Shown here: positions 2,310-12,870 of the stretch, one piece after another
Numbering within the stretch: position 1 is the first letter of the stretch
Layout of the letters: every line of letters begins with the position of its first letter
Source of the DNA: an uncultured Spirochaetota bacterium
GTDB taxonomy: Bacteria > Spirochaetota > Spirochaetia > SZUA-6 > Fen-1364
Length of the DNA stretch: 14,167 bases
Direction of reading: 5' to 3'
Assembly (NCBI GenBank): GCA_963745235.1
Contig: CAVUXE010000103.1
Coordinates: 1-14,167, forward strand
Position numbers and translations under genes: made by a program
The notes under the pieces: generated by a model
Told to the model about the DNA's origin: nothing
Databases searched by the model: none
Seen by the model: the letters and a program-made list of their open reading frames with translations, nothing else

Positions 2310-3214
2310 ATGCCAATACCAGATTACCAAACGTTGATGCTCCCGCTCCTTCGATTCCTCTCTGACGAGAAAGAGCACAAGCTTGAAGAAGCGATAGCCG
2401 CCTTGTCGGAGGAGTTTGGGCTCACCCCTAATGAGCGCCAAACAATGCTCCCCAGTGGCCAGCAGACGGTGATCAGGAACCGAGCAGGTTGGGCGCGGAC
2501 CTACATGGCGAAGGCTGGTCTAATTGACTCGGTCCGAAGAGGTTTCTTCCGACTGTCCGAGAAAGGCAAGGCCGTTCTTTCCTCCAGGCCTGAGCGTATC
2601 GATATCCACTTCCTTGAGCAGTTTCCTGAGTTCGTCGCTTTCCGTGATCTTCACCACAACCAGGGCGAGGAGAAAAAAGAAGCGTCCGCGTCAGCGGAGA
2701 CCCCAGAGGAAGCGTTTGATGCTGCCTATCAAAGACTACGCGCCGACCTCGAAGCTGATGTCCTTGAACAAGTCAAGGTCGCATCGCCAGCTTTTTTCGA
2801 GCGCATCGTCGTCGAGCTTCTCGTCAATATGGGGTACGGCGGGAACCTTCACGACGCTGGGCAGGCAGTAGGCCATGTGGGAGATGGGGGAATCGATGGG
2901 ATTATTAAAGAGGATCGACTCGGGTTGGACGTGATCTACATCCAAGCAAAGCGTTGGGACGCTACTGTTGGGCGCCCCGAAATTCAGAAGTTTGCGGTGC
3001 GTTAGGCGGGAATCGAGCTAAGAAGGGCGTATTCATCACAACGTCTGGATTCTCTAAAGATGCGATTGATTTCGTTGATAGAATCGACAGCAAGATAGTC
3101 CTGATCGACGGGCAGACGCTTTCGAGGCTGATGGTCGATCACGGCGTGGGTGTTTCAAAAATCCAGTCTTACGAGGTGAAGAAGGTAGACGCCGACTACT
3201 TCTCCGAGGAGTAG
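2310..3214 (+). CDS. mrr: Mrr-family type IV restriction endonuclease with one base missing near 2995-2997
   Basis: Mrr N-terminal domain (MPIPDYQTLMLPLL...RNRAGWARTYM) plus catalytic GDGGIDG...IYIQAKRW; ORFs 2310-3005 and 2954-3214 join as QKFAGALGGNRAKKGVFITTS (~301 aa). Confidence 0.92.
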
Positions 3215-5442: not shown

Positions 5443-5674
5443 GTTTTTCTCCTGGTAAGCTGTTTCGACGGCATAGCCGCCCGGAAAGCCGCCGGCCAAG
5501 GCGCGTGGCGGGGCTGTAGCGAACGATCAGGCGCCCTGCCGCATACCTAGTACCACCCCGCAAAGTCGAAGACGAATCTTAGGCCGCGCCCGCCTCGCCT
5601 TCCGTGTCGCCTACACTTCGCGGGGGCCTCAGTGTAGGAACCCGACACAGAAGGGACCCGAGGGGGGCGCGGCC

Positions 5675-5746
5675 CTCCGACTACAAGCCACACAAGCGCA
5701 TTGCGCTATTTTGCACGGAGTGCTATTGTGTGGCTTGTAGTCGGAG
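5675..5746. repeat. Perfect 21-bp inverted repeat abutting the predicted nic site
   Basis: CTCCGACTACAAGCCACACAA (5675-5695) and TTGTGTGGCTTGTAGTCGGAG (5726-5746), 30-nt spacer. Confidence 0.9.
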
Positions 5747-5774
5747 CGCATTTAACAGAAGTGCTCTGCACTTC
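5743..5774 (-). other. MOBQ-type origin of transfer (oriT/nic)
   Basis: Minus strand GAAGTGC-aga-GCACTTC-tgt-TAAATGCG^CTCC: inverted repeat followed by a core resembling R1162/RSF1010 TAA(A/G)TGCG^CCCT; lies between the relaxase and a divergent gene. Predicted nick 5747/5746. Confidence 0.75.
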
Positions 5775-5884: not shown

Positions 5885-7003
5885 ATGAAAACCAAGCCGC
5901 TTCACCCCAGCGTTCGGGCCATCCAGAGGTCCCGCTCAATCGGCAAGACCCACAGGCCCATGACCACCGTGGGAATCGCGGCCTACCACAACCGCATGGA
6001 CTTGCACCTGGAAGCGGACAGGTTCCTGGAGGCCCACACCTACAAGTTTGGCGAGCGCGGGGAGGATCCGGTCATCGCGCGGGGCATCCTTTCACCAGAG
6101 AACGCACCCGAATACTTGAAAGACGTCGACCCCAGCGACAAGAAGCTGTACCGGGAAGTGACCGGGCGGCTTTGGAACGACGCCGAGCACGCGGGAGGGA
6201 AGTCCAACGCCATCACGGGGCGCGAGTGGATGCTGCCCATCCCCTGCGAGCTGGGCAGAGAGGAGGCGGAGCACCTGGTGCGAAGCTTCCTCAAGGACTA
6301 CCTGGTGGAGAAGGGCATGGTGGCGCAGTACGTGATCCACGAGCCAAACGAAAAGAACGACTCGCGAAATCTTCACGCTCACGTTCTAACGACTGACCGA
6401 GACATCACTACTGAAGGATTCGCAAAGAAAAAGACAGCAAGCCTCGAGTGGCACAACCGCGACCTGGTCAGGGAAGCGCATCCCGCGTGGGAGAAGGCAT
6501 GCAACAACGCCTTGCAGCTTGCCGGACACAAAGACATCCATATCGACAACAGGCGAAACGCAGTGCAGCTCGGGGAAGCCCTCGAGCGCGGGGACCTGGC
6601 AAGAGCGCGCGAGCTAAACCATGTCCCTGGGGTGCACAAGGGCAGGGCGATCAAGGAGATGGAAGCCAGGGGGATCGAGAGCTTCAAGATGAAGGATCGC
6701 CAGGCGCTTGCAGCGGGACGGTGGGAGCAGGAAGTGGGAGCGATGGCGAGCGGAGTTTCCAAGATCATGGAGCAGCATCGAGGGATCCAAGAGACACTGG
6801 ATAAGCAGATAGAGATGACCAAGTCCAAGGGGGTAGAGCATGAGCTTGGAAGAGGAATTGAGGCGGGAAGAGGATCGCACGAGCGTGGAGAGGATCAGGG
6901 GCGCGCTCAGGGAGGAGCTCGAGGAGCAGCTAAGGGGCATGGAATCAAGGATCAAGAGCGAGATGGCGGAAAGGATCGCGACGGTCCAGAGATCGGGTTC
7001 TAG
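5885..7003 (+). CDS. mobA: MobA/MobL-family (MOBQ) relaxase
   Basis: Motif I AAY, LWN.AE, REWMLPIPCEL, HUH region IHEP...RNLHAHVLTTDR, WEKACNNAL...IDNR, H.G; AAGGAG RBS. Confidence 0.9.
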   Translation: MKTKPLHPSVRAIQRSRSIGKTHRPMTTVGIAAYHNRMDLHLEADRFLEAHTYKFGERGEDPVIARGILSPENAPEYLKDVDPSDKKLYREVTGRLWNDAEHAGGKSNAITGREWMLPIPCELGREEAEHLVRSFLKDYLVEKGMVAQYVIHEPNEKNDSRNLHAHVLTTDRDITTEGFAKKKTASLEWHNRDLVREAHPAWEKACNNALQLAGHKDIHIDNRRNAVQLGEALERGDLARARELNHVPGVHKGRAIKEMEARGIESFKMKDRQALAAGRWEQEVGAMASGVSKIMEQHRGIQETLDKQIEMTKSKGVEHELGRGIEAGRGSHERGEDQGRAQGGARGAAKGHGIKDQERDGGKDRDGPEIGF

Positions 7004-7337: not shown

Positions 7338-7444
7338 ACCCTTGAGGAAGAGAACGCGAAATGAAAAGCCACGTATCCAGCTTCGGCGTGGGGGGAGTGT
7401 TGCCACTCAGGATGTCGACTCCGATAATGTTAGTCAGGAGTTTA

Positions 7445-8128
7445 ATGGGGAAGGATTACGATGCAACAGGCCTGATTTACTTCAACGCTCGCTATTATGA
7501 CCCCACCACCGGCCGCTTCCTCACCGAGGACCCCTCCCGGAAGGGGGTCAACTGGTACGCGTACTGCGGGAATAACCCCATTAACAAGGTGGACAGGACG
7601 GGCCGGCAAGAGGAAAGCTTGGCAGATGTAAACTGGAGACCCGGTGCAGATATCGCGCGTGATCCCAGCTTTCCGACCGGTCCCTCAAATGCACCAGAGA
7701 TAAACCTCCCAAGCGGCTCTCGATACCATCCCGAACAGGACCAGGGTGAAGGCAGCTGGGGAGTATGGGCAAGTGTGCCTCAGCAGGCATACTGGGATAT
7801 CAAGGGCCAGCCCAATCCGCTCGTCGAGAGGTTGTACCCGAAGGAGCCAACATTTTCGCGGAACTACGACCCTTGGGGGGATTTGGGACGCTCGATTTCG
7901 AAGCTGGCGACGAATGCTTGGGCCCTGGTGTCCAGTCTGTTCAACAGACCTGATGCGAGTGGCCCCACCCCGTCGCGATCACCGGGTCCAAGCGTACCGG
8001 CCTCGAACGTGTCGCCTGAAAATCGGCAAGGAGGTCCGGGCAACAACGCCCCCTCCGGCGCAGCAGTCGCCAGAGAACTGGTACCACTAGGGCTGCAACA
8101 ACCTCAATCGAAGGTGATCAGAAGGTGA
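7445..8128 (+). CDS. Orphan RHS repeat-associated core tip with uncharacterised C-terminal extension
   Basis: GKDYDATGLIYFNARYYDPTTGRFLTEDP...NWYAYCGNNPINKVDRTG is the RHS core signature ending in PxxxxDxxG; AGGAG RBS before ATG 7445; no RHS repeats upstream. Confidence 0.8.
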   Translation: MGKDYDATGLIYFNARYYDPTTGRFLTEDPSRKGVNWYAYCGNNPINKVDRTGRQEESLADVNWRPGADIARDPSFPTGPSNAPEINLPSGSRYHPEQDQGEGSWGVWASVPQQAYWDIKGQPNPLVERLYPKEPTFSRNYDPWGDLGRSISKLATNAWALVSSLFNRPDASGPTPSRSPGPSVPASNVSPENRQGGPGNNAPSGAAVARELVPLGLQQPQSKVIRR

Positions 8129-9006
8129 GTGTCCGCGCGCTAATCCTGCTTCCCACGATCTTTCTTGTGGTGGCTTGCACGTCGCGAGAGGCCACAGCCT
8201 ATCTCCGGCACGCCAACGACTTAGCCAACAAAGGTGACTACGAGCAGGCGATCCTCGACTACAACAAGGCCATCGAACTGAGTCCAAGGATGTCGGGAGC
8301 ATACACGGGCCGCGGCCTCGCCTGGTACTACAAAGGTGACCTCGACAAGGCCGCCGCGGACTACAGTCGCGCCATTGAGATCAATCCAAAGAGTGGTGCC
8401 GCCTACCACGACCGGGCGATAGTTCTCGACACAGAAGGCGACTCAAGAAAAGCGATCGAGGACTACAACAGAGCCATCGAGTTCGAACCTAGAAATGCGA
8501 GCACATATGTTGACCGCGCAACCGCTTGGCGGCACCTCGGAGAGACCGAGAAGGCTATGGTTGACTGCAACAGGGCCATTGAATTGGACTCAAACTTTGC
8601 CGACGCCTATTTCATTCGTGGACTCCTTTGGATCTCCGAAGACAATAACCGGAAGGCGATTGAGGACTTGGACAAAGCGATCTCGCTTAACCCCGGAGAT
8701 GCGGATGCGCATACAGCGCGAGGCGCCGCGTGGCAACGCGCAGGAGACCTTGACAAGGCTATCGCCGACTACACCAAGGCAATCGAACTCGACCCGAGTC
8801 ACGCTTCTGTGGCTTTTTACGACCGTGGTCTGGTGTGGGAAAGCAAAGGCGACCAACACAATGCACTTGCCGACTTCGACAAGGCAATTGAGTTGAATCC
8901 CCGATACGTTCAGGCATACGTTAGCCGGGCCGATATTTGGAAGAAACTTGGCAACTCAGAAAAGGCAGGAGCCGATAGAGCCAAAGCCGCGGAGCTCGCG
9001 CACTAG
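8125..9006 (+). CDS. Tetratricopeptide-repeat lipoprotein
   Basis: Signal peptide with lipobox-like VVAC; about 8 TPRs (AY..RG.A....GD..KAI.DY.KAIEL.P); GTG start overlaps the RHS stop (GTGA). Confidence 0.9.
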   Translation: MSVRALILLPTIFLVVACTSREATAYLRHANDLANKGDYEQAILDYNKAIELSPRMSGAYTGRGLAWYYKGDLDKAAADYSRAIEINPKSGAAYHDRAIVLDTEGDSRKAIEDYNRAIEFEPRNASTYVDRATAWRHLGETEKAMVDCNRAIELDSNFADAYFIRGLLWISEDNNRKAIEDLDKAISLNPGDADAHTARGAAWQRAGDLDKAIADYTKAIELDPSHASVAFYDRGLVWESKGDQHNALADFDKAIELNPRYVQAYVSRADIWKKLGNSEKAGADRAKAAELAH

Positions 9007-9076
9007 ACGAACGCGCTCAGAGCGGTTTCGGTCGTTCCTGACGCTGTTCTGTGTACCGGATGACGCTACGGGCTAC

Positions 9077-9651
9077 CCTCGCCCCCCCGCCGCTCCCCCT
9101 CCCTGGAACCCACCCCCTCGGCTTCCCCCCTGTTAAGGTACCCTTGGTCGTCCAGGGAGGGGGACGCTCATGGGGGGGCTCGGCTTCCTACCGCTCCTCG
9201 CCGCGCTCGGCATCCCTGCCTCGCTGGGAGCTCGTCGCTTCGGAAGGCCCTGCGCTATGGTGGTGACGGTTGGGTGCGGCAGCGTCCAGCATGCCGAGAG
9301 GGCCGACCGTAGGCGGTTTGCTGATCGTGACCGACGCGGCGTTCGTCGGCGGGCAACGGCTGGAGCTGGCCGAGCGCGTCGCTGACCGCTGGAATCGACC
9401 CCGCGCCGAAGGCACCGTCGCGATCGGCAGCCGCCGCACGCAGATGCGGCCGCCCCTGACGGTGCGAGACAGAGCGGAGGGCTTTCTGTAGCGCTGGAGC
9501 GAGGCGCCAAGGACGGCGCCGAGTGGAGGCGCGTACAGAAACCGCGGCCCCCCTAAGAGTCTCCCCCTCCCAGACGACCAGAGGGTTCCATATCCGGGGG
9601 GTGTGCAGAGCGGGTGGGACGGGGAGGGCGGAGACGGCAGGGGGGTGAGGG
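9077..9651. repeat. Long imperfect inverted repeat (~575-nt fold-back)
   Basis: Arms pair in near-constant register (coordinate sums 18725-18730): 9077/9651 CCCTC..GAGGG, 9145-9152 TGGTCGTC with 9573-9580 GACGACCA, 9247-9256 with 9473-9482, 9302-9309 with 9421-9428. Confidence 0.8.
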
Positions 9652-9664
9652 AAGGCCGACGCGC

Positions 9665-9705: not shown

Positions 9706-9950
9706 CCGAATAAGATTGTATTATTTCGACACGTTGAAACGGGGGATGAGCCGAAGGGAAGGCGGCGTACCCGCCCTTAATCAGCCGTCGAACACGCCGC
9801 CGACGCGAATCTCCAAAAATCCTACGCTCGCCCTGGCCCGTGGTGCCATCAGCAAGAGGGCTCGCCGTGTCATTCTACCCAGGAGAAGAGCGCCGTTACC
9901 GACAAGTTGATATTGTTCGTAAAAGCCCGAAGATCGCCGGGGCAAGAGAG

Positions 9951-10068
9951 GGCACGGAGGCATGGTCGCGCGCCCAAGCGCTCCATGCTGAGGATCTCCC
10001 GCGCGGGTTGATCATTGCTTACCTGAAACTAACCCCAGCGCTGACTTATCGCCACCGGACTCCGTGCC
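9951..10068. ncRNA. Structured motif of unknown family, copy 1
   Basis: Closed by GGCACGGAG/CTCCGTGCC; inner GCATGG/CCATGC stem; blocks TGAnGATCTCCCGCGC and CCAGCGCTGACTTAyCGCCACCGGA shared with copy 2. Confidence 0.5.
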
Positions 10069-10131
10069 ACGAAGGAAAACGCTGCCACACGAAAAGAACG
10101 CCGGCAAGTGAAAGCGGCGTCTGATCGAGAG

Positions 10132-10335
10132 TCATGCTTCGTCGTGCTCAGGGATGTCAGTAAGGTCCTCAAGCCCTTCCTCGTCATCGATCACGCCATC
10201 TATCATGCTGCAAAAGCCCGCCGCTCCATCCCTCACGTTATGCAACACGGCGATCTCGGTGTCGTTGGAATCCACCAGATCAACCACCGATGATAGAATG
10301 TTGCGAACGATTCTTAACAGGTCCTGTTCCTTCAT
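10132..10335 (-). CDS. Small acidic hypothetical protein (67 aa)
   Basis: AAGGGGGGTG RBS-like sequence before ATG 10335; MKEQDLLRIVRNILSSVVDLVD... amphipathic helices with D/E-rich tail. Confidence 0.55.
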   Translation of the reverse strand: MKEQDLLRIVRNILSSVVDLVDSNDTEIAVLHNVRDGAAGFCSMIDGVIDDEEGLEDLTDIPEHDEA

Positions 10336-10360
10336 TACACCCCCCTTCGTGTTTCCGTCC

Positions 10361-10591
10361 CTATGGGGCAAGTCCTTGCTCGATCATTCTCTCCGCCCAA
10401 AGTCGGGCACCAGTTTTCGCTGCCTCCTTCGTTGGATAGACACTCGGCTCTCCCCGCAGTTGGAGGTGCTTTGTTTTTTGGTGACTGGGTTCGTCGGGCA
10501 AGAAGGTCCCGCCGCTGAACGTCCACCCGTTGCCGTCGAGTGTCTGTAGCACGTCAATTTCAACGAGGATGCCTCGGATTTTGAACTCCAT
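10361..10591 (-). CDS. Small hypothetical protein (76 aa)
   Basis: MEFKIRGILVEIDVLQ...W.F...YPTKEAAKTGARLWAERMIE: beta strands plus C-terminal helix, plausible as a real small protein; co-oriented with the next ORF. Confidence 0.5.
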   Translation of the reverse strand: MEFKIRGILVEIDVLQTLDGNGWTFSGGTFLPDEPSHQKTKHLQLRGEPSVYPTKEAAKTGARLWAERMIEQGLAP

Positions 10592-10761
10592 GTTGGACCG
10601 ATAGTGAGCCCTTCGCGAGCCGTGGCGCAAGGGTGCCCGGGCGGTCTGTTGTGTTTTCGAGCGATGACCGTAGTAAGCTTCTGACTAAGCTTTCATCATG
10701 GGATTGTCGCCCCCGGTTCAACCTCCTTTCCGGGGGCGATTTCTTAGGCTCCAAAGAGAGA

Positions 10762-10871
10762 GGCACGGAGGCATGGCTGTACCCCATGAAGGTTTTTCCA
10801 TGCTGACGATCTCCCGCGCTGATCAACGTAACCAACTCCAGCGCTGACTTACCGCCACCGGACTCCGTGCC
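10762..10871. ncRNA. Structured motif of unknown family, copy 2
   Basis: Same closing stem, inner stem and conserved blocks as 9951-10068, with different loop sequences and lengths. Confidence 0.5.
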
Positions 10872-11091
10872 TGATAAGGTCCATCAGAAGATCGGTCTCC
10901 AACAGAACGCCCGGCAAGCGAGGTCAGAAGCCCCTTGTGAGAGTTCTTTAAGTCTCGGGGTACACCGTAAATGTCATTTCGCTTCACGGGATTCTTGAGG
11001 CGGGAGTTCTCGCGTTTATCGCCGATGTCAGAGCTGCTATGCTACGCCGACTTGGTATATAACAGGTAGAGTATGCACCGGGGGGTGTCGT

Positions 11092-11670
11092 TTGGCCACC
11101 TTCTACGTGAAGCCTTTGGACGAAAGCACATGGTCCGACTTCGCGCGCCTGGTCGAGAAGCACAACGGCGTATGGGGCGGATGTTGGTGCATGGCCTTCC
11201 ACTCGGAGGGGGTGGGCCGGTCCAAGACCGTATCCCAGAATCGATCCGAAAAGGAACGTCGAGTGCGTGAACATCGAGCTCACGCCGCCCTCGTGTACGA
11301 CGGCCCGAACTCTGTGGGCTGGTGTCAATTCGGACCAACCGAGGAGCTTCCACGCATCAAGAACAAACAGGCATATTTGGAGGGCCTTAGCGAAAGTCCG
11401 GATTGGAGGATCACCTGCTTTTTCGTTGACCACGACTATCGGCGCAAGGGAGTGGCTTCGGTCGCACTGAGGGGAGCTTTGCAGGAGATCGCCCAGCTTG
11501 GTGGAGGAACGGTTGAAAGCTATCCCCAGGAGGTCGACGGCCGAGCGGTGTCAGGGTCGTTTCTTCACAACGGAACGGTATCGATGTTTGAGCGGCAAGG
11601 ATTCCGGCGCATCCGTCGTCTTGGCAAGAACCATTGGGTAGTCTCCAAGGCGGTGCGGAAGTCACAGTAA
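11092..11670 (+). CDS. GNAT-family N-acetyltransferase
   Basis: GCWCM motif, VGWCQFGP, acetyl-CoA motif CFFVDHDYRRKGVA, VESYP, GTVSMFERQGF; TTG start after a G-rich RBS. Confidence 0.9.
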   Translation: MATFYVKPLDESTWSDFARLVEKHNGVWGGCWCMAFHSEGVGRSKTVSQNRSEKERRVREHRAHAALVYDGPNSVGWCQFGPTEELPRIKNKQAYLEGLSESPDWRITCFFVDHDYRRKGVASVALRGALQEIAQLGGGTVESYPQEVDGRAVSGSFLHNGTVSMFERQGFRRIRRLGKNHWVVSKAVRKSQ

Positions 11671-12030: not shown

Positions 12031-12870
12031 ATGGCTACCACGCCCGCCAGGCGGCCCGACCTTGCTTCAGCTTTGTTGGAGGTCAAGGCTCGCGGAGAAC
12101 TCACCACTCAGGCCTACCGGCACGCGCTGGAAGCGTTTCTGGAAAGCGGCCAAGCGGTGACCGTGGAAGGTTTCGCCCAGTACATCCACGAACTGCGCCG
12201 GACTCGGGCCGCGAGCACCGTCAACCAGGCCCTGGCCGCCGGCAGAAAAGCTTTCCTCCAGGCCGCCGAGCGCCTGGGCATGCCCGCGAAAGAGATCTCT
12301 CTCATCCGCGGAGCCCTGGCCGACATCCCCTCAGTGAAGAAAGGACCGCCGGAGGTCGCGGTGGTCTCACCCGCTGAGCGTTCGACGCTCCTTGCCGCGC
12401 TGCCCCTACGAATGCGCCTGGTTGCCGAGACGCTCTACGTCACCGGCGCCCGCGTCTCGGAGGTCCTGGGGGTGAGGCGCGACCAGATAAAGGTGAACGG
12501 CGCCAACGGCACCGTGGAGCTCAGGCTCTACGGCAAGGGCGGCAAGGAACGCACTGCGCGGATTCCCGCGGAGCTTTACAAACGGATCCTCGAGGTCTAC
12601 CCCAGGGGGACGTACTTGTTTGAGAGTAGCCACAAGAAGCACTTCAGGCGGGAGTATGTATCGAGGGAGATCGCACGGGCGGCCAGGCGGGTCCTGGGAA
12701 GGAGAATCTCGGCGCACGTGCTTCGCCACTCGCGGGCGACAGATCTGCTGGCGAACACGCATCGCATAAAGGCGGTCTCAAGGCTCCTTGGGCATAGCGA
12801 CGAAGCGACAACGCTACGGTATTATGTGCACGACGCCTTTAGCGACGAGGAGCTCTTTGGGGGGAGGTGA
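12031..12870 (+). CDS. Tyrosine recombinase (Xer/phage integrase family)
   Basis: Catalytic residues R (TGARVSE), K (GKGGKER), HxxR (HVLRHS), LGH and Y (TLRYYVH); 279 aa with no arm-binding domain. Confidence 0.93.
   Translation: MATTPARRPDLASALLEVKARGELTTQAYRHALEAFLESGQAVTVEGFAQYIHELRRTRAASTVNQALAAGRKAFLQAAERLGMPAKEISLIRGALADIPSVKKGPPEVAVVSPAERSTLLAALPLRMRLVAETLYVTGARVSEVLGVRRDQIKVNGANGTVELRLYGKGGKERTARIPAELYKRILEVYPRGTYLFESSHKKHFRREYVSREIARAARRVLGRRISAHVLRHSRATDLLANTHRIKAVSRLLGHSDEATTLRYYVHDAFSDEELFGGR

What the first reader, a model, noticed from the sequence alone, without database searches (positions are those of the whole stretch)
9951..10918. Two copies of an unrecognised ~110-118-nt structured motif bracketing two small ORFs
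Seen: copies at 9951-10068 and 10762-10871 keep an identical 9-bp closing stem, a 6-bp inner stem whose loop differs completely, and near-invariant internal blocks, while two regions vary in length. Each is flanked by AGAGAG on the left and AGAACGCC(C)GGCAAG on the right (CTTGCCGG, -35-like, on the minus strand). On the minus strand GGC-GRTAA-GTC forms a small G-U-containing hairpin. Conserved junctions with variable loops are typical of riboswitches, ribozymes and sRNAs, and I cannot match it to a known family. Inference: a new cis-regulatory or catalytic RNA, probably minus-strand, linked to the 76-aa and 67-aa genes; best candidate for an undescribed system here.
Basis: partly seen in the sequence, partly recalled or inferred. 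Interest (0 to 1): 0.8.

Follow-up and report, generated by a model that had tools for sequence, protein, structure and literature searches.

The report
Structured leader repeat on spirochaete plasmids
A folded sequence of about 120 bases, repeated about nine times in one uncultured spirochaete genome and matching no catalogued RNA family, sits in front of small accessory genes and is probably part of their messenger RNA, but its job is still unknown.

Summary
Two copies (9951-10068, 10762-10871) share a 9-bp closing stem, a 6-bp inner stem and near-invariant blocks, and they bracket two genuine small genes. They are not a private pair. The genome holds 8 full copies and 1 partial copy. The family occurs in 4 of 92 genomes searched in the order, all of one genus, and in 21 metagenome loci. 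Nothing was found in Rfam, plasmid, phage or viral collections.

The element fits a three-way junction on the minus strand, the strand of the neighbouring genes: P1, a P1b-P2 arm and a P3 arm. Support is moderate:
- G-U pairs favour the minus strand (28 cells against 8).
- Helix P1b pairs only on the minus strand.
- The hairpin tips vary while the core does not.
- True covariation is thin (5 pairs, 9 cells), and expression of the motif was not seen.

The element lies in a mosaic module of about 300 nt on plasmid-like contigs. The module has a promoter-like box, the motif, a hairpin showing AAGGAGG, and a convergent antisense unit of about 60 nt with its own promoter and terminator.

Best reading (0.4): a cis-acting leader RNA in a portable promoter-leader cassette. 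Main rival (0.3): a DNA-level dispersed repeat. It is not an integron attC, a hammerhead, a REP/RAYT repeat or an Frpo-type promoter.

The parts
10762..10871 (-). Motif copy B (core three-way junction). Minus-strand helices: P1 10863-10871 with 10762-10770; P1b 10851-10857 with 10804-10810; P2 10838-10844 with about 10816-10822; P3 10798-10803 with 10771-10776.
   Evidence: CM R1 scores it at 112 bits. The consensus fold equals the unconstrained MFE for this copy.
9951..10068 (-). Motif copy A (core). P1 10060-10068 with 9951-9959; P1b 10048-10054 with 9989-9995 (one C-C mismatch, G-U replaced by A-U); P3 9983-9988 with 9960-9965. P2 is in a shifted register.
   Evidence: CM R1 scores it at 105 bits. 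The constrained fold is 5.0 kcal/mol above the MFE.
10888..10917 (-). Promoter-like box upstream of copy B: TTGCCG (10917-10912), 18 nt, GATCTT (10893-10888). This is an inferred promoter. Copy A keeps TTGCCG (10102-10107) but lacks the GATCTT block.
   Evidence: the same arrangement (spacer 17-18) is found in 12 of 13 aligned modules; one copy (L059) has CATAAT at that place. The scan did not call it a sigma-70 site.
10651..10745 (+). Convergent antisense unit: -35 GTGTTT 10651-10656, -10 TAAGCT 10674-10679, hairpin GCCCCCGG/CCGGGGGC 10709-10737 with loop ...CCUCC..., T-run 10739-10745. The predicted RNA is about 60 nt. On the minus strand the same hairpin shows AAGGAGG in its loop.
   Evidence: 17-nt spacer in 13 of 13 modules; -10 with A2 and T6 in 13 of 13 and T1 in 12 of 13; hairpin plus T-run in 13 of 13; CCTCC in the loop in 11 of 13. 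The terminator-like site was listed.
10361..10591 (-). 76-aa ORF, first gene downstream of copy B.
   Evidence: 12 other clusters at 61-88% identity, no Pfam. Two metatranscriptome contigs lie on 10378-10573.
10132..10335 (-). 67-aa acidic ORF, followed after 63 nt by copy A.
   Evidence: 21 other clusters, no Pfam. A paralogue lies before a motif copy on C8. A homologue without the motif is in G006.
9921..9943 (-). Weak terminator-like hairpin (GCCCCGGCGAUCUUCGGGC plus UUUU) directly after copy A. It belongs to a segment (9779-9929) that elsewhere follows another small gene.
   Evidence: Sequence. Homology of 9779-9929 to C30 29093-29240 and C8 12154-12251. The scan did not call it (only 4 T).

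Best explanation
The motif is the structured core of a portable promoter-leader module. The module is carried by plasmid-like and other mobile DNA of one spirochaete genus.

The motif is transcribed on the window's minus strand together with the accessory genes that follow it. It folds into a three-way junction: a closing helix P1, an arm made of P1b, a 3x3 internal loop (AAG/GAG) and P2, and an arm P3.

It acts in cis on the fate of that mRNA (translation, stability or processing), probably together with the downstream hairpin that displays AAGGAGG and with a convergent antisense RNA of about 60 nt.

Shown: the repeat family, its fold-compatible conservation, its strand bias, its co-orientation with genes, and its mosaic spread. 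Inferred: transcription, the two promoters, and any regulatory action. Which signal it responds to (protein, small RNA, ligand, or none) is unknown.
For: 1. Family. A profile finds 8 full copies and 1 partial copy in the genome. A covariance model scores them at 92-116 bits. I assembled 28 distinct cores from 4 genomes and the metagenome loci.

2. Strand.
- On the minus strand 95.0% of cells pair, with 28 G-U cells. On the plus strand 92.3% pair, with 8 G-U cells.
- Helix P1b (UGGCGGU/AUCGUCA) carries two G-U pairs in 26 and 24 of 28 copies and A-U in the rest (98.5% paired). On the plus strand these would be A-C mismatches.
- The minus-strand MFE is lower in 28 of 28 copies, with mean z of -2.26 against -1.70.

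3. Fold. RNAalifold recovers P1, P1b, P2 and P3 without guidance. The consensus fold is the MFE in 8 of 28 copies and within 2.5 kcal/mol in 20 of 28.

4. Conservation pattern. The junction and internal-loop bases are invariant. The P2 and P3 tips differ in sequence and length, and are swapped between otherwise near-identical loci (L064 against L076).

5. Context.
- In 6 of 8 full copies in the genome, a homology-supported gene follows on the same strand within about 170-550 nt.
- All copies are co-oriented on the 4 of 4 contigs that hold two or more (C103, C8, G003:C14, L060).
- Minus-strand terminators of the preceding gene end just before the module in C30, C8_12748, L033, L061 and L075.
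- A promoter-like TTGCCK-17/18-GATCTT is found in 12 of 13 aligned modules.

6. Mobile setting. ParA, a Rep (HTH_36) and a MobQ relaxase are in the window. Rep homologues are on the motif contigs C8 and C11. ParA and Rep flank the motif in L064.
Against: - No expression evidence for the motif. The only RNA-library contigs lie inside the 76-aa ORF.
- Covariation is thin. Only 5 of 22 core pairs show a change on both sides, in 9 cells. The RNAalifold covariation term is 0.01 kcal/mol. P1b has no double-sided change.
- The sequences are close relatives, so invariance may partly be recent ancestry. The wobble bias counts cells, not independent events.
- The z-score advantage of the minus strand holds in only 18 of 28 copies.
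- The distribution is narrow and patchy: 4 of 92 genomes of the order (3 of 20 other species of the genus) and 0 of 150 other genomes of the phylum. Truncated copies exist, and an IS110 insertion abuts one copy. This is what a selfish DNA repeat would also show.
- The downstream genes are functionally unrelated.
- The -10-like hexamer GATCTT is weak, and the sigma-70 scan did not call it. About 9 of 28 copies lack that box, by my own reading.
Confidence: 0.4

Rival explanations
1. A DNA-level dispersed repeat (REP-, ERIC- or MITE-like, or simply a recombination hot spot) spreads with mobile DNA of this genus. It has no RNA function of its own. Its palindromic parts and conserved blocks serve DNA transactions or nothing at all.
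For: - About 9 copies per genome, with a patchy presence in 3 of 20 other species of the genus.
- Mosaic loci with breakpoints inside and at the edges of the motif.
- Decayed and truncated copies: C12, L072, L079 and the second copy in L033.
- An IS110-family transposase gene abuts a truncated copy. From my own knowledge, IS110-family elements often target repeats.
- The same region holds at least two other repeat families shared across the genus.
Against: - The strand asymmetry of wobble-compatible changes, and a helix that pairs on one strand only.
- Strict co-orientation with neighbouring genes.
- Unpaired junction bases are conserved while the hairpin tips drift.
- I saw no target-site duplication and no sharp ends (by eye).
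- The 4 Y1-transposase (RAYT/IS200-type) genes lie on contigs C28, C57 and C75, none of which holds the motif.
- A DNA element and an RNA role are not mutually exclusive.
Confidence: 0.3
2. A ligand-sensing riboswitch aptamer, with the AAGGAGG hairpin as its expression platform.
For: - A 5'-leader position with a conserved junction and variable peripheral stems.
- A segment of the motif (CCGGUGGC) resembles the 3' arm (CCGGGGGC) of the downstream hairpin. It could compete for the 5' arm GCCCCCGG. This is read from the sequence and is inference only.
Against: - The downstream genes share no function.
- The motif is confined to one genus.
- Some copies lack the hairpin module altogether: winA, L039, L059 and C31.
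- There is no covariation support for alternative pairings.
Confidence: 0.1
3. A new small self-cleaving ribozyme that processes transcripts of the accessory-gene cassettes.
For: From my own knowledge, known small ribozymes typically have about 30 invariant bases around a multi-helix junction, freely variable stems, several copies per genome, mixed gene context and mobile DNA surroundings. This motif shares those traits.
Against: - No hit to any ribozyme family in Rfam.
- The hammerhead-like CUGANGA lies on the plus strand, and the second core element GAAA is absent.
- There is no RNA end data.
Confidence: 0.08
4. A structured single-strand DNA site. Either it is an attC-like recombination site for a non-integron recombinase, or it is an Frpo/ssi-type single-strand promoter used when the plasmid enters a new cell.
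For: - Co-oriented copies bracket small ORFs, like cassettes.
- A tyrosine recombinase gene lies at 12031-12870.
- The setting is plasmid-like, with a MobQ relaxase and an oriT-like inverted repeat.
- Frpo elements are folded DNA placed upstream of co-oriented leading-region genes (PMC11541004, passages read).
Against: - There are no RYYYAAC/GTTRRRY boxes.
- The genome's true integron (intI at 373 bits, at least 10 attC sites read) uses quite different sites.
- The window recombinase scores 73 bits against the integron-integrase cut-off of 265.
- No -35/-10 hexamers lie within the paired arms on either strand (my reading).
- The fold is branched, not one long hairpin.
- If mobA enters last, as in known MobQ plasmids (my own knowledge), the transferred strand would be the coding strand of these genes.
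Confidence: 0.07

Closest known systems
Transcribed intergenic repeats of bacteria (ERIC, REP/BIME, Correia-type elements). The comparison is from my own knowledge.
   Same: They are dispersed in several copies in intergenic DNA, fold-prone, restricted to a lineage, often co-transcribed with neighbours, and able to carry promoter-like boxes.
   Different: - This is a branched three-way junction with about 60 invariant bases, including unpaired ones, and hypervariable tips.
- No terminal inverted repeats beyond the 9-12-bp P1, and no target duplications were seen.
- No RAYT partner on the motif contigs.
Antisense (countertranscript) controlled leaders of plasmids, such as CopA/CopT of R1 or FinP/traJ of F. 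The comparison is from my own knowledge.
   Same: A structured sense leader sits on plasmid-like DNA. A short convergent RNA gene has its own promoter and terminator, and its hairpin loop is complementary to a Shine-Dalgarno-like loop in the leader.
   Different: - The module precedes many unrelated genes rather than one rep or tra gene.
- The three-way junction lies outside the sense/antisense overlap.
- A start codon at proper spacing from the AAGGAGG loop is missing in several copies.
- Nothing has been shown experimentally.
Integron attC sites
   Same: Structured repeats of 100-140 nt, co-oriented, between small promoterless-looking ORFs. A tyrosine recombinase gene is nearby.
   Different: The R''/R' boxes are absent and the fold is branched. 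The same genome has a canonical integron whose attC sites are unrelated in sequence.
Reused or 'mobile' promoters (Promoter reuse in prokaryotes, PMC3575422; I saw the search listing and the start of the abstract only)
   Same: Highly similar upstream regions stand in front of non-homologous genes within one genome.
   Different: Here the shared region is about 300 nt and includes a conserved folded core and an antisense unit, not only a promoter.
Frpo/ssi single-strand promoters of plasmid leading regions (PMC11541004; passages read)
   Same: Folded elements in several copies upstream of co-oriented small genes on transferable DNA.
   Different: There are no -35/-10 hexamers in the stem, the fold is branched, and the likely transferred strand is the wrong one. 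The nic site is unknown.

Membership tests
Any Rfam 15 family | Covariance-model score at or above the family's gathering score | tested here: not met
   Zero matches in the window at gathering score. At E <= 10 over 9800-11050 there were 3 matches of 12-21 bits, none on the cores. In 16 further loci (49,765 bases) at E <= 0.1 there was only a tRNA and an overlapping weak hit, both away from the motif.
Integron attC | Terminal R'' (RYYYAAC) and R' (GTTRRRY) boxes | tested here: not met
   Not present at the ends of any copy. The genome's own attC sites on C9 do carry TAACAA...GTTA(T/G/C) boxes.
Integron attC | An array next to an integron integrase | tested here: not met
   The window recombinase scores 73.3 bits against TIGR02249, whose cut-off is 265. 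The one gene above the cut-off is on C9 with its own array.
Hammerhead ribozyme | Core CUGANGA and GAAA strands between three helices | tested here: not met
   CTGA(C/G)GA follows the first hairpin on the plus strand in 28 of 28 copies. The strand after the second hairpin is TGACTTACCGCCA..., without GAAA. No Rfam hammerhead hit.
REP with RAYT | Short palindromes flanking, or co-occurring with, a Y1 transposase gene | tested here: not met
   The 4 Y1_Tnp genes are on C28, C57 and C75. Motif copies are on C103, C8, C11, C12, C30 and C31.
MITE | Terminal inverted repeats plus target-site duplication, and empty sites in relatives | tested here: inconclusive
   P1 (9-12 bp) could pass as terminal repeats of the core. 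I saw no duplication by eye, and similarity fades gradually at the ends of the module. No empty site was recovered.
Frpo/ssi single-strand promoter | -35 and -10 hexamers paired within a long stem of the transferred strand | tested here: not met
   No such hexamers lie inside the paired arms on either strand. The fold is branched. The feature list is taken from PMC11541004.
Frpo/ssi single-strand promoter | Lies on the transferred strand in the leading region | not testable with these tools
   The nic site and the transferred strand are unknown. Only an oriT-like inverted repeat at 5672-5749 and a MobQ relaxase gene are seen.
Riboswitch | An aptamer upstream of functionally coherent genes, with covariation across a wide range of organisms | tested here: not met
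   The downstream genes are unrelated. The motif is in one genus only. Only 5 pairs show double-sided change.
Antisense-controlled leader (countertranscript type) | A convergent promoter and terminator giving a short RNA complementary to the leader's ribosome-binding region | tested here: met
   Met at the sequence level only. There is a 17-nt spacer in 13 of 13 modules, a -10 with A2 and T6 in 13 of 13, hairpin plus T-run in 13 of 13, and CCTCC in the loop in 11 of 13. Expression was not testable.

The most novel reading that the evidence does not exclude
The core is a new class of functional RNA carried by spirochaete plasmids. It could be a self-cleaving ribozyme or a sensor/antitermination domain that works at the start of accessory-gene transcripts. 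It would be paired with a small antisense RNA whose terminator loop copies the anti-Shine-Dalgarno end of 16S rRNA. Together they would form a self-contained, transferable expression-control cassette that recombination can place in front of any gene.
Probability: 0.15. Interest if true: 0.8.

Novelty: new member of a known kind. Interest (0 to 1): 0.45.

Why it matters
If the minus-strand RNA reading holds, this is an uncatalogued structured RNA from a poorly known group, uncultured Spirochaetota. It would be built into a compact, movable unit made of a promoter, a folded leader and an antisense RNA. Such a unit would show how mobile DNA can bring ready-made expression control to newly acquired genes. 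Its parts might also be reusable as genetic tools.

If the DNA-repeat reading holds, it is one more lineage-specific repeat family. It would then mainly be useful for strain typing and for understanding the mosaic plasmids of this genus.

Either way, the motif is not specifically tied to the two small genes in the window.

Tried and rejected
- Integron attC. Rejected because there are no R boxes and the genome's true integron has different sites.
- Hammerhead. Rejected because GAAA is absent and the CUGANGA-like strand is on the plus strand.
- Sigma-54 promoter at CTTGCC. TGGCGC-N5-TTGC fits in only 2 copies (C11, C8_11096), where it belongs to another hairpin module (by eye).
- Coding potential across the motif. 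ORFs overlapping it cluster only because the nucleotides are shared. The P3 tip lengths differ by non-multiples of three.
- A leader peptide after the AAGGAGG hairpin. The frames differ, one stops after 4 codons, and several copies have no AUG.
- Expression. One run search and one read-laying found 2 metatranscriptome contigs (156 and 161 nt) on 10378-10573 only. The lack of cover on the motif is uninformative.
- Empty-site search. The PhoU copy next to a motif is a second, frameshifted paralogue, so it gave no orthologous empty site. A 3.2-kb query across the region found only scattered pieces.
- Plasmid and phage collections by blastn gave nothing.
- Viral contigs. The two-anchor pattern had 0 hits. 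A 17-mer had 25 hits, of which the 13 that matched model R1 at E <= 1 scored at most 23.8 bits, so all were judged chance.
- A literature search for the core 14-mer on either strand found one unrelated paper.
- Long-range pairing CCGAUCUU/GAUCAUCGG around the module. Changes are one-sided only, and it conflicts with the promoter reading, so it is left open.
Full report
**Observation**

Each begins GGCACGGAG, ends CTCCGTGCC, and carries GCATGG...CCATGC around unrelated loops. Each is preceded by AGAGAG and followed about 30 nt later by AGAACGCC(C)GGCAAG. With flanks they align at 77% mean column identity over 227 columns. The longest ungapped blocks are 42 nt at 93% and 23 nt at 96%.

A profile built from these two copies alone finds seven more places in the same genome at E from 2e-22 to 7e-7. 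The next hit has E = 0.83. So the similarity is far beyond chance, and the pair belongs to a family.

**What the window is**

The window is a whole 14,167-bp contig of a 5.8-Mb draft genome in 104 contigs. The only named record sharing the motif is titled as an uncultured Spirochaetota genome.

The contig looks like plasmid or other mobile DNA. It carries:
- ParA
- a split Mrr gene
- a Rep-like HTH_36 protein
- a MobQ relaxase behind a 34-nt inverted repeat
- an Rhs tip
- a GNAT
- a 279-aa tyrosine recombinase
- a transposase fragment

Rep homologues lie on several other contigs, including the motif-bearing C8 and C11. In metagenome locus L064 the motif lies between ParA and a Rep-like gene.

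**Family and distribution**

The genome has 8 full copies and 1 partial copy: C103 x2, C8 x3, C11, C30, C31, and a partial one on C12.

| Search | Result |
|---|---|
| Covariance model, family | 4 of 25 genomes |
| Covariance model, order | 4 of 92 genomes, all one genus (3 of 20 other species) |
| Covariance model, phylum sample | 0 of 150 other genomes |
| Two-anchor pattern, species-representative genomes | 1 locus |
| Two-anchor pattern, metagenome contigs | 21 loci |
| Two-anchor pattern, viral contigs | 0 loci |
| blastn, 72,556 plasmid records | no match |
| blastn, 50,697 phage records | no match |

A 17-mer found 25 viral places. Of these, 13 matched the covariance model at E <= 1, with a best score of 23.8 bits against at least 92 bits for full-length members, so I read all 25 as chance. 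Rfam gives nothing for the window or for 16 related loci. The core 14-mer appears in no relevant paper.

**Anatomy**

From 28 distinct cores (104-146 nt) the conserved parts, written on the window's minus strand, are:
- GGCACGGAG (P1, 5' strand)
- UCCGK
- UGGCGGU
- AAG
- UC-A-GCGCUGG (P2), then a variable tip, then conserved UCAUGUA and CCAGCGC-GG
- GAG
- AUCGUCA
- GCAUGG (P3), then a variable tip, then CCAUGC
- CUCCGUGCC (P1, 3' strand)

RNAalifold, run on 13 extended sequences without guidance, returns P1, P2 and P3.

The consensus fold is the unconstrained MFE in 8 of 28 copies and lies within 2.5 kcal/mol in 20 of 28. Copy A is 5.0 kcal/mol above its MFE, and copy B is exactly the MFE.

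**Which strand**

| Measure | Plus strand | Minus strand |
|---|---|---|
| Cells paired in P1, P2, P3 | 92.3% | 95.0% |
| G-U cells | 8 | 28 |
| Unpaired cells | 47 | 31 |
| Mean z of MFE | -1.70 | -2.26 |

- P1b has G-U at two positions in 26 and 24 of 28 copies and A-U in the others (98.5% paired). On the plus strand these would be A-C mismatches.
- The minus-strand MFE is lower in 28 of 28 copies, but its z-score is better in only 18 of 28.

Against this, double-sided changes are few (5 pairs, 9 cells). The alifold covariation term is about zero. The copies are close kin, so these counts are not independent events. I take the minus strand as the folding strand with moderate confidence.

**Context**

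The neighbours that can be trusted, through Pfam or recurrence, run on the same strand as the fold:
- the 76-aa and 67-aa genes after copy B
- a different 67-aa gene after C8_12748 and C30
- a small Cys-rich ORF after C11
- Xre-RES after C8_20023
- a frameshifted PhoU paralogue after C8_11096, and PhoU also in L066

That makes 6 of 8 full copies in the genome with a supported same-strand gene 170-550 nt downstream. Copies are co-oriented on all 4 contigs that hold two or more.

The 67-aa and 76-aa proteins are small conserved families without Pfam domains. A homologue of the 67-aa gene stands without any motif in G006. So the motif is not specifically their partner.

**The larger module**

Conservation runs about 60 nt upstream and about 130 nt downstream of the core in most copies.

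Upstream on the minus strand lies TTGCCK, then 17-18 nt, then GATCTT in 12 of 13 aligned modules. One copy has CATAAT at that spot. In five copies a strong minus-strand terminator of the preceding gene ends just before this box. This suggests a promoter, but the hexamer is weak and the generic scan did not call it.

Downstream lies an A-rich linker and a hairpin GCCCCCGG/CCGGGGGC with AAGGAGG in its loop.

On the opposite strand this same hairpin is followed by a T-run. It is preceded at a fixed distance by TTGTTT-like, then 17 nt, then TANNNT. The counts are:
- 17-nt spacer in 13 of 13 modules
- A2 and T6 of the -10 in 13 of 13, and T1 in 12 of 13
- CCTCC in the loop in 11 of 13

That conservation pattern is what a sigma-70 -10 element shows. 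It predicts a convergent RNA of about 60 nt (window 10686-10745) antisense to the leader, ending just short of the motif.

Copy A lacks this downstream part. It is joined directly to a weak terminator-like hairpin (9943-9921) that elsewhere follows another small gene.

Loci are mosaics. The hairpin tips, the leader part and the genes are reassorted between copies. Truncated copies exist, and an IS110-family gene abuts one of them.

**Interpretation**

The most economical reading is a portable promoter-leader cassette of mobile DNA in this genus. Its folded core is part of the mRNA and acts in cis, with an antisense RNA as a second control layer.

I give this 0.4 because transcription is unproven and covariation is thin. 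The only RNA-library contigs lie inside the 76-aa ORF.

A DNA-level repeat with no RNA role is the main rival (0.3). The patchy distribution, the decay, the mosaicism and the IS targeting all fit it. The strand bias, the co-orientation and the conserved unpaired bases speak against it.

A riboswitch (0.1) is weakened by the unrelated downstream genes and the single-genus range. A ribozyme (0.08) has the right general look but no specific support.

The attC and Frpo-type readings (0.07 together) fail their defining sequence features:
- The genome has a true integron on C9 (intI at 373 bits) whose attC sites carry the canonical boxes and are unrelated to the motif.
- The window recombinase scores 73 bits against a cut-off of 265.
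- No -35/-10 hexamers lie within the paired arms. The Frpo features are taken from passages of PMC11541004.

**Verdict**

This is a real, uncatalogued, structured repeat family of narrow range. It is probably a transcribed leader element, and it is not the private regulator of the two small genes. It is moderately interesting, and the antisense unit beside it adds to that. Function remains to be shown.

Noticed in passing
window 10651-10745 (+): A predicted convergent small RNA gene of about 60 nt. It has a -35 TTGTTT-like box, a 17-nt spacer, a -10 TANNNT and an intrinsic terminator. The terminator loop reads ...CACCUCCUU..., like the 3' end of 16S rRNA. It is conserved in 13 of 13 aligned modules.
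   Followed up: partly
window 10937-11007: A separate element of about 70 nt, just upstream of copy B on the minus strand. It recurs at 80-90% identity in own contigs C10 and C11 and in genomes G001, G006, G007, G017 and G019, which lack the motif. It has no Rfam match.
   Followed up: no
window 9060-9260 and 9470-9663: Two inverted arms of about 190 nt each (core 9125-9179 / 9547-9601). They form a repeat family found on both strands in many genomes of the genus and on own contigs C15, C30 and C100.
   Followed up: no
window 5672-5749: A 34-nt inverted repeat (85% complementary, 10-nt spacer) just upstream of the MobQ relaxase gene at 5885-7003. It is a likely oriT.
   Followed up: no
G000:C9:236427-251401: A canonical chromosomal integron. 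The integron integrase scores above the cut-off (373 bits). An array of attC sites of about 110-120 nt, roughly 0.6-1 kb apart, runs to the contig end. A second, split intI-like gene with repeats lies on C5.
   Followed up: partly
window 2310-3214 (+): The Mrr restriction endonuclease is split into two overlapping ORFs (231 aa and 86 aa). This looks like a frameshift.
   Followed up: no
L062:3250-4064 (also L061, L071): An IS110-family transposase gene abuts a motif copy that is truncated exactly at GCGC^TGACTTACC. Two other truncated copies (L072, L079) both break at CATG^CTGAC.
   Followed up: partly
G000:C11 about 15430-15520, C8 about 11290-11400, C12 about 25840-25900, L033, L060: Another conserved long-hairpin module (GCGCCAGGC...GCCTGGCGC) often lies just upstream of the motif's promoter-like box on the minus strand.
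   Followed up: no
G000:C26:2232-3242: A second contig carries a Rep gene 100% identical to the window's and a similar relaxase. The assembly seems to hold several closely related plasmid-like replicons.
   Followed up: no
window 7361-9006 (+): An Rhs-associated core tip (255 aa) is followed by a TPR protein of 293 aa. This may be an orphan toxin-tip and immunity pair.
   Followed up: no
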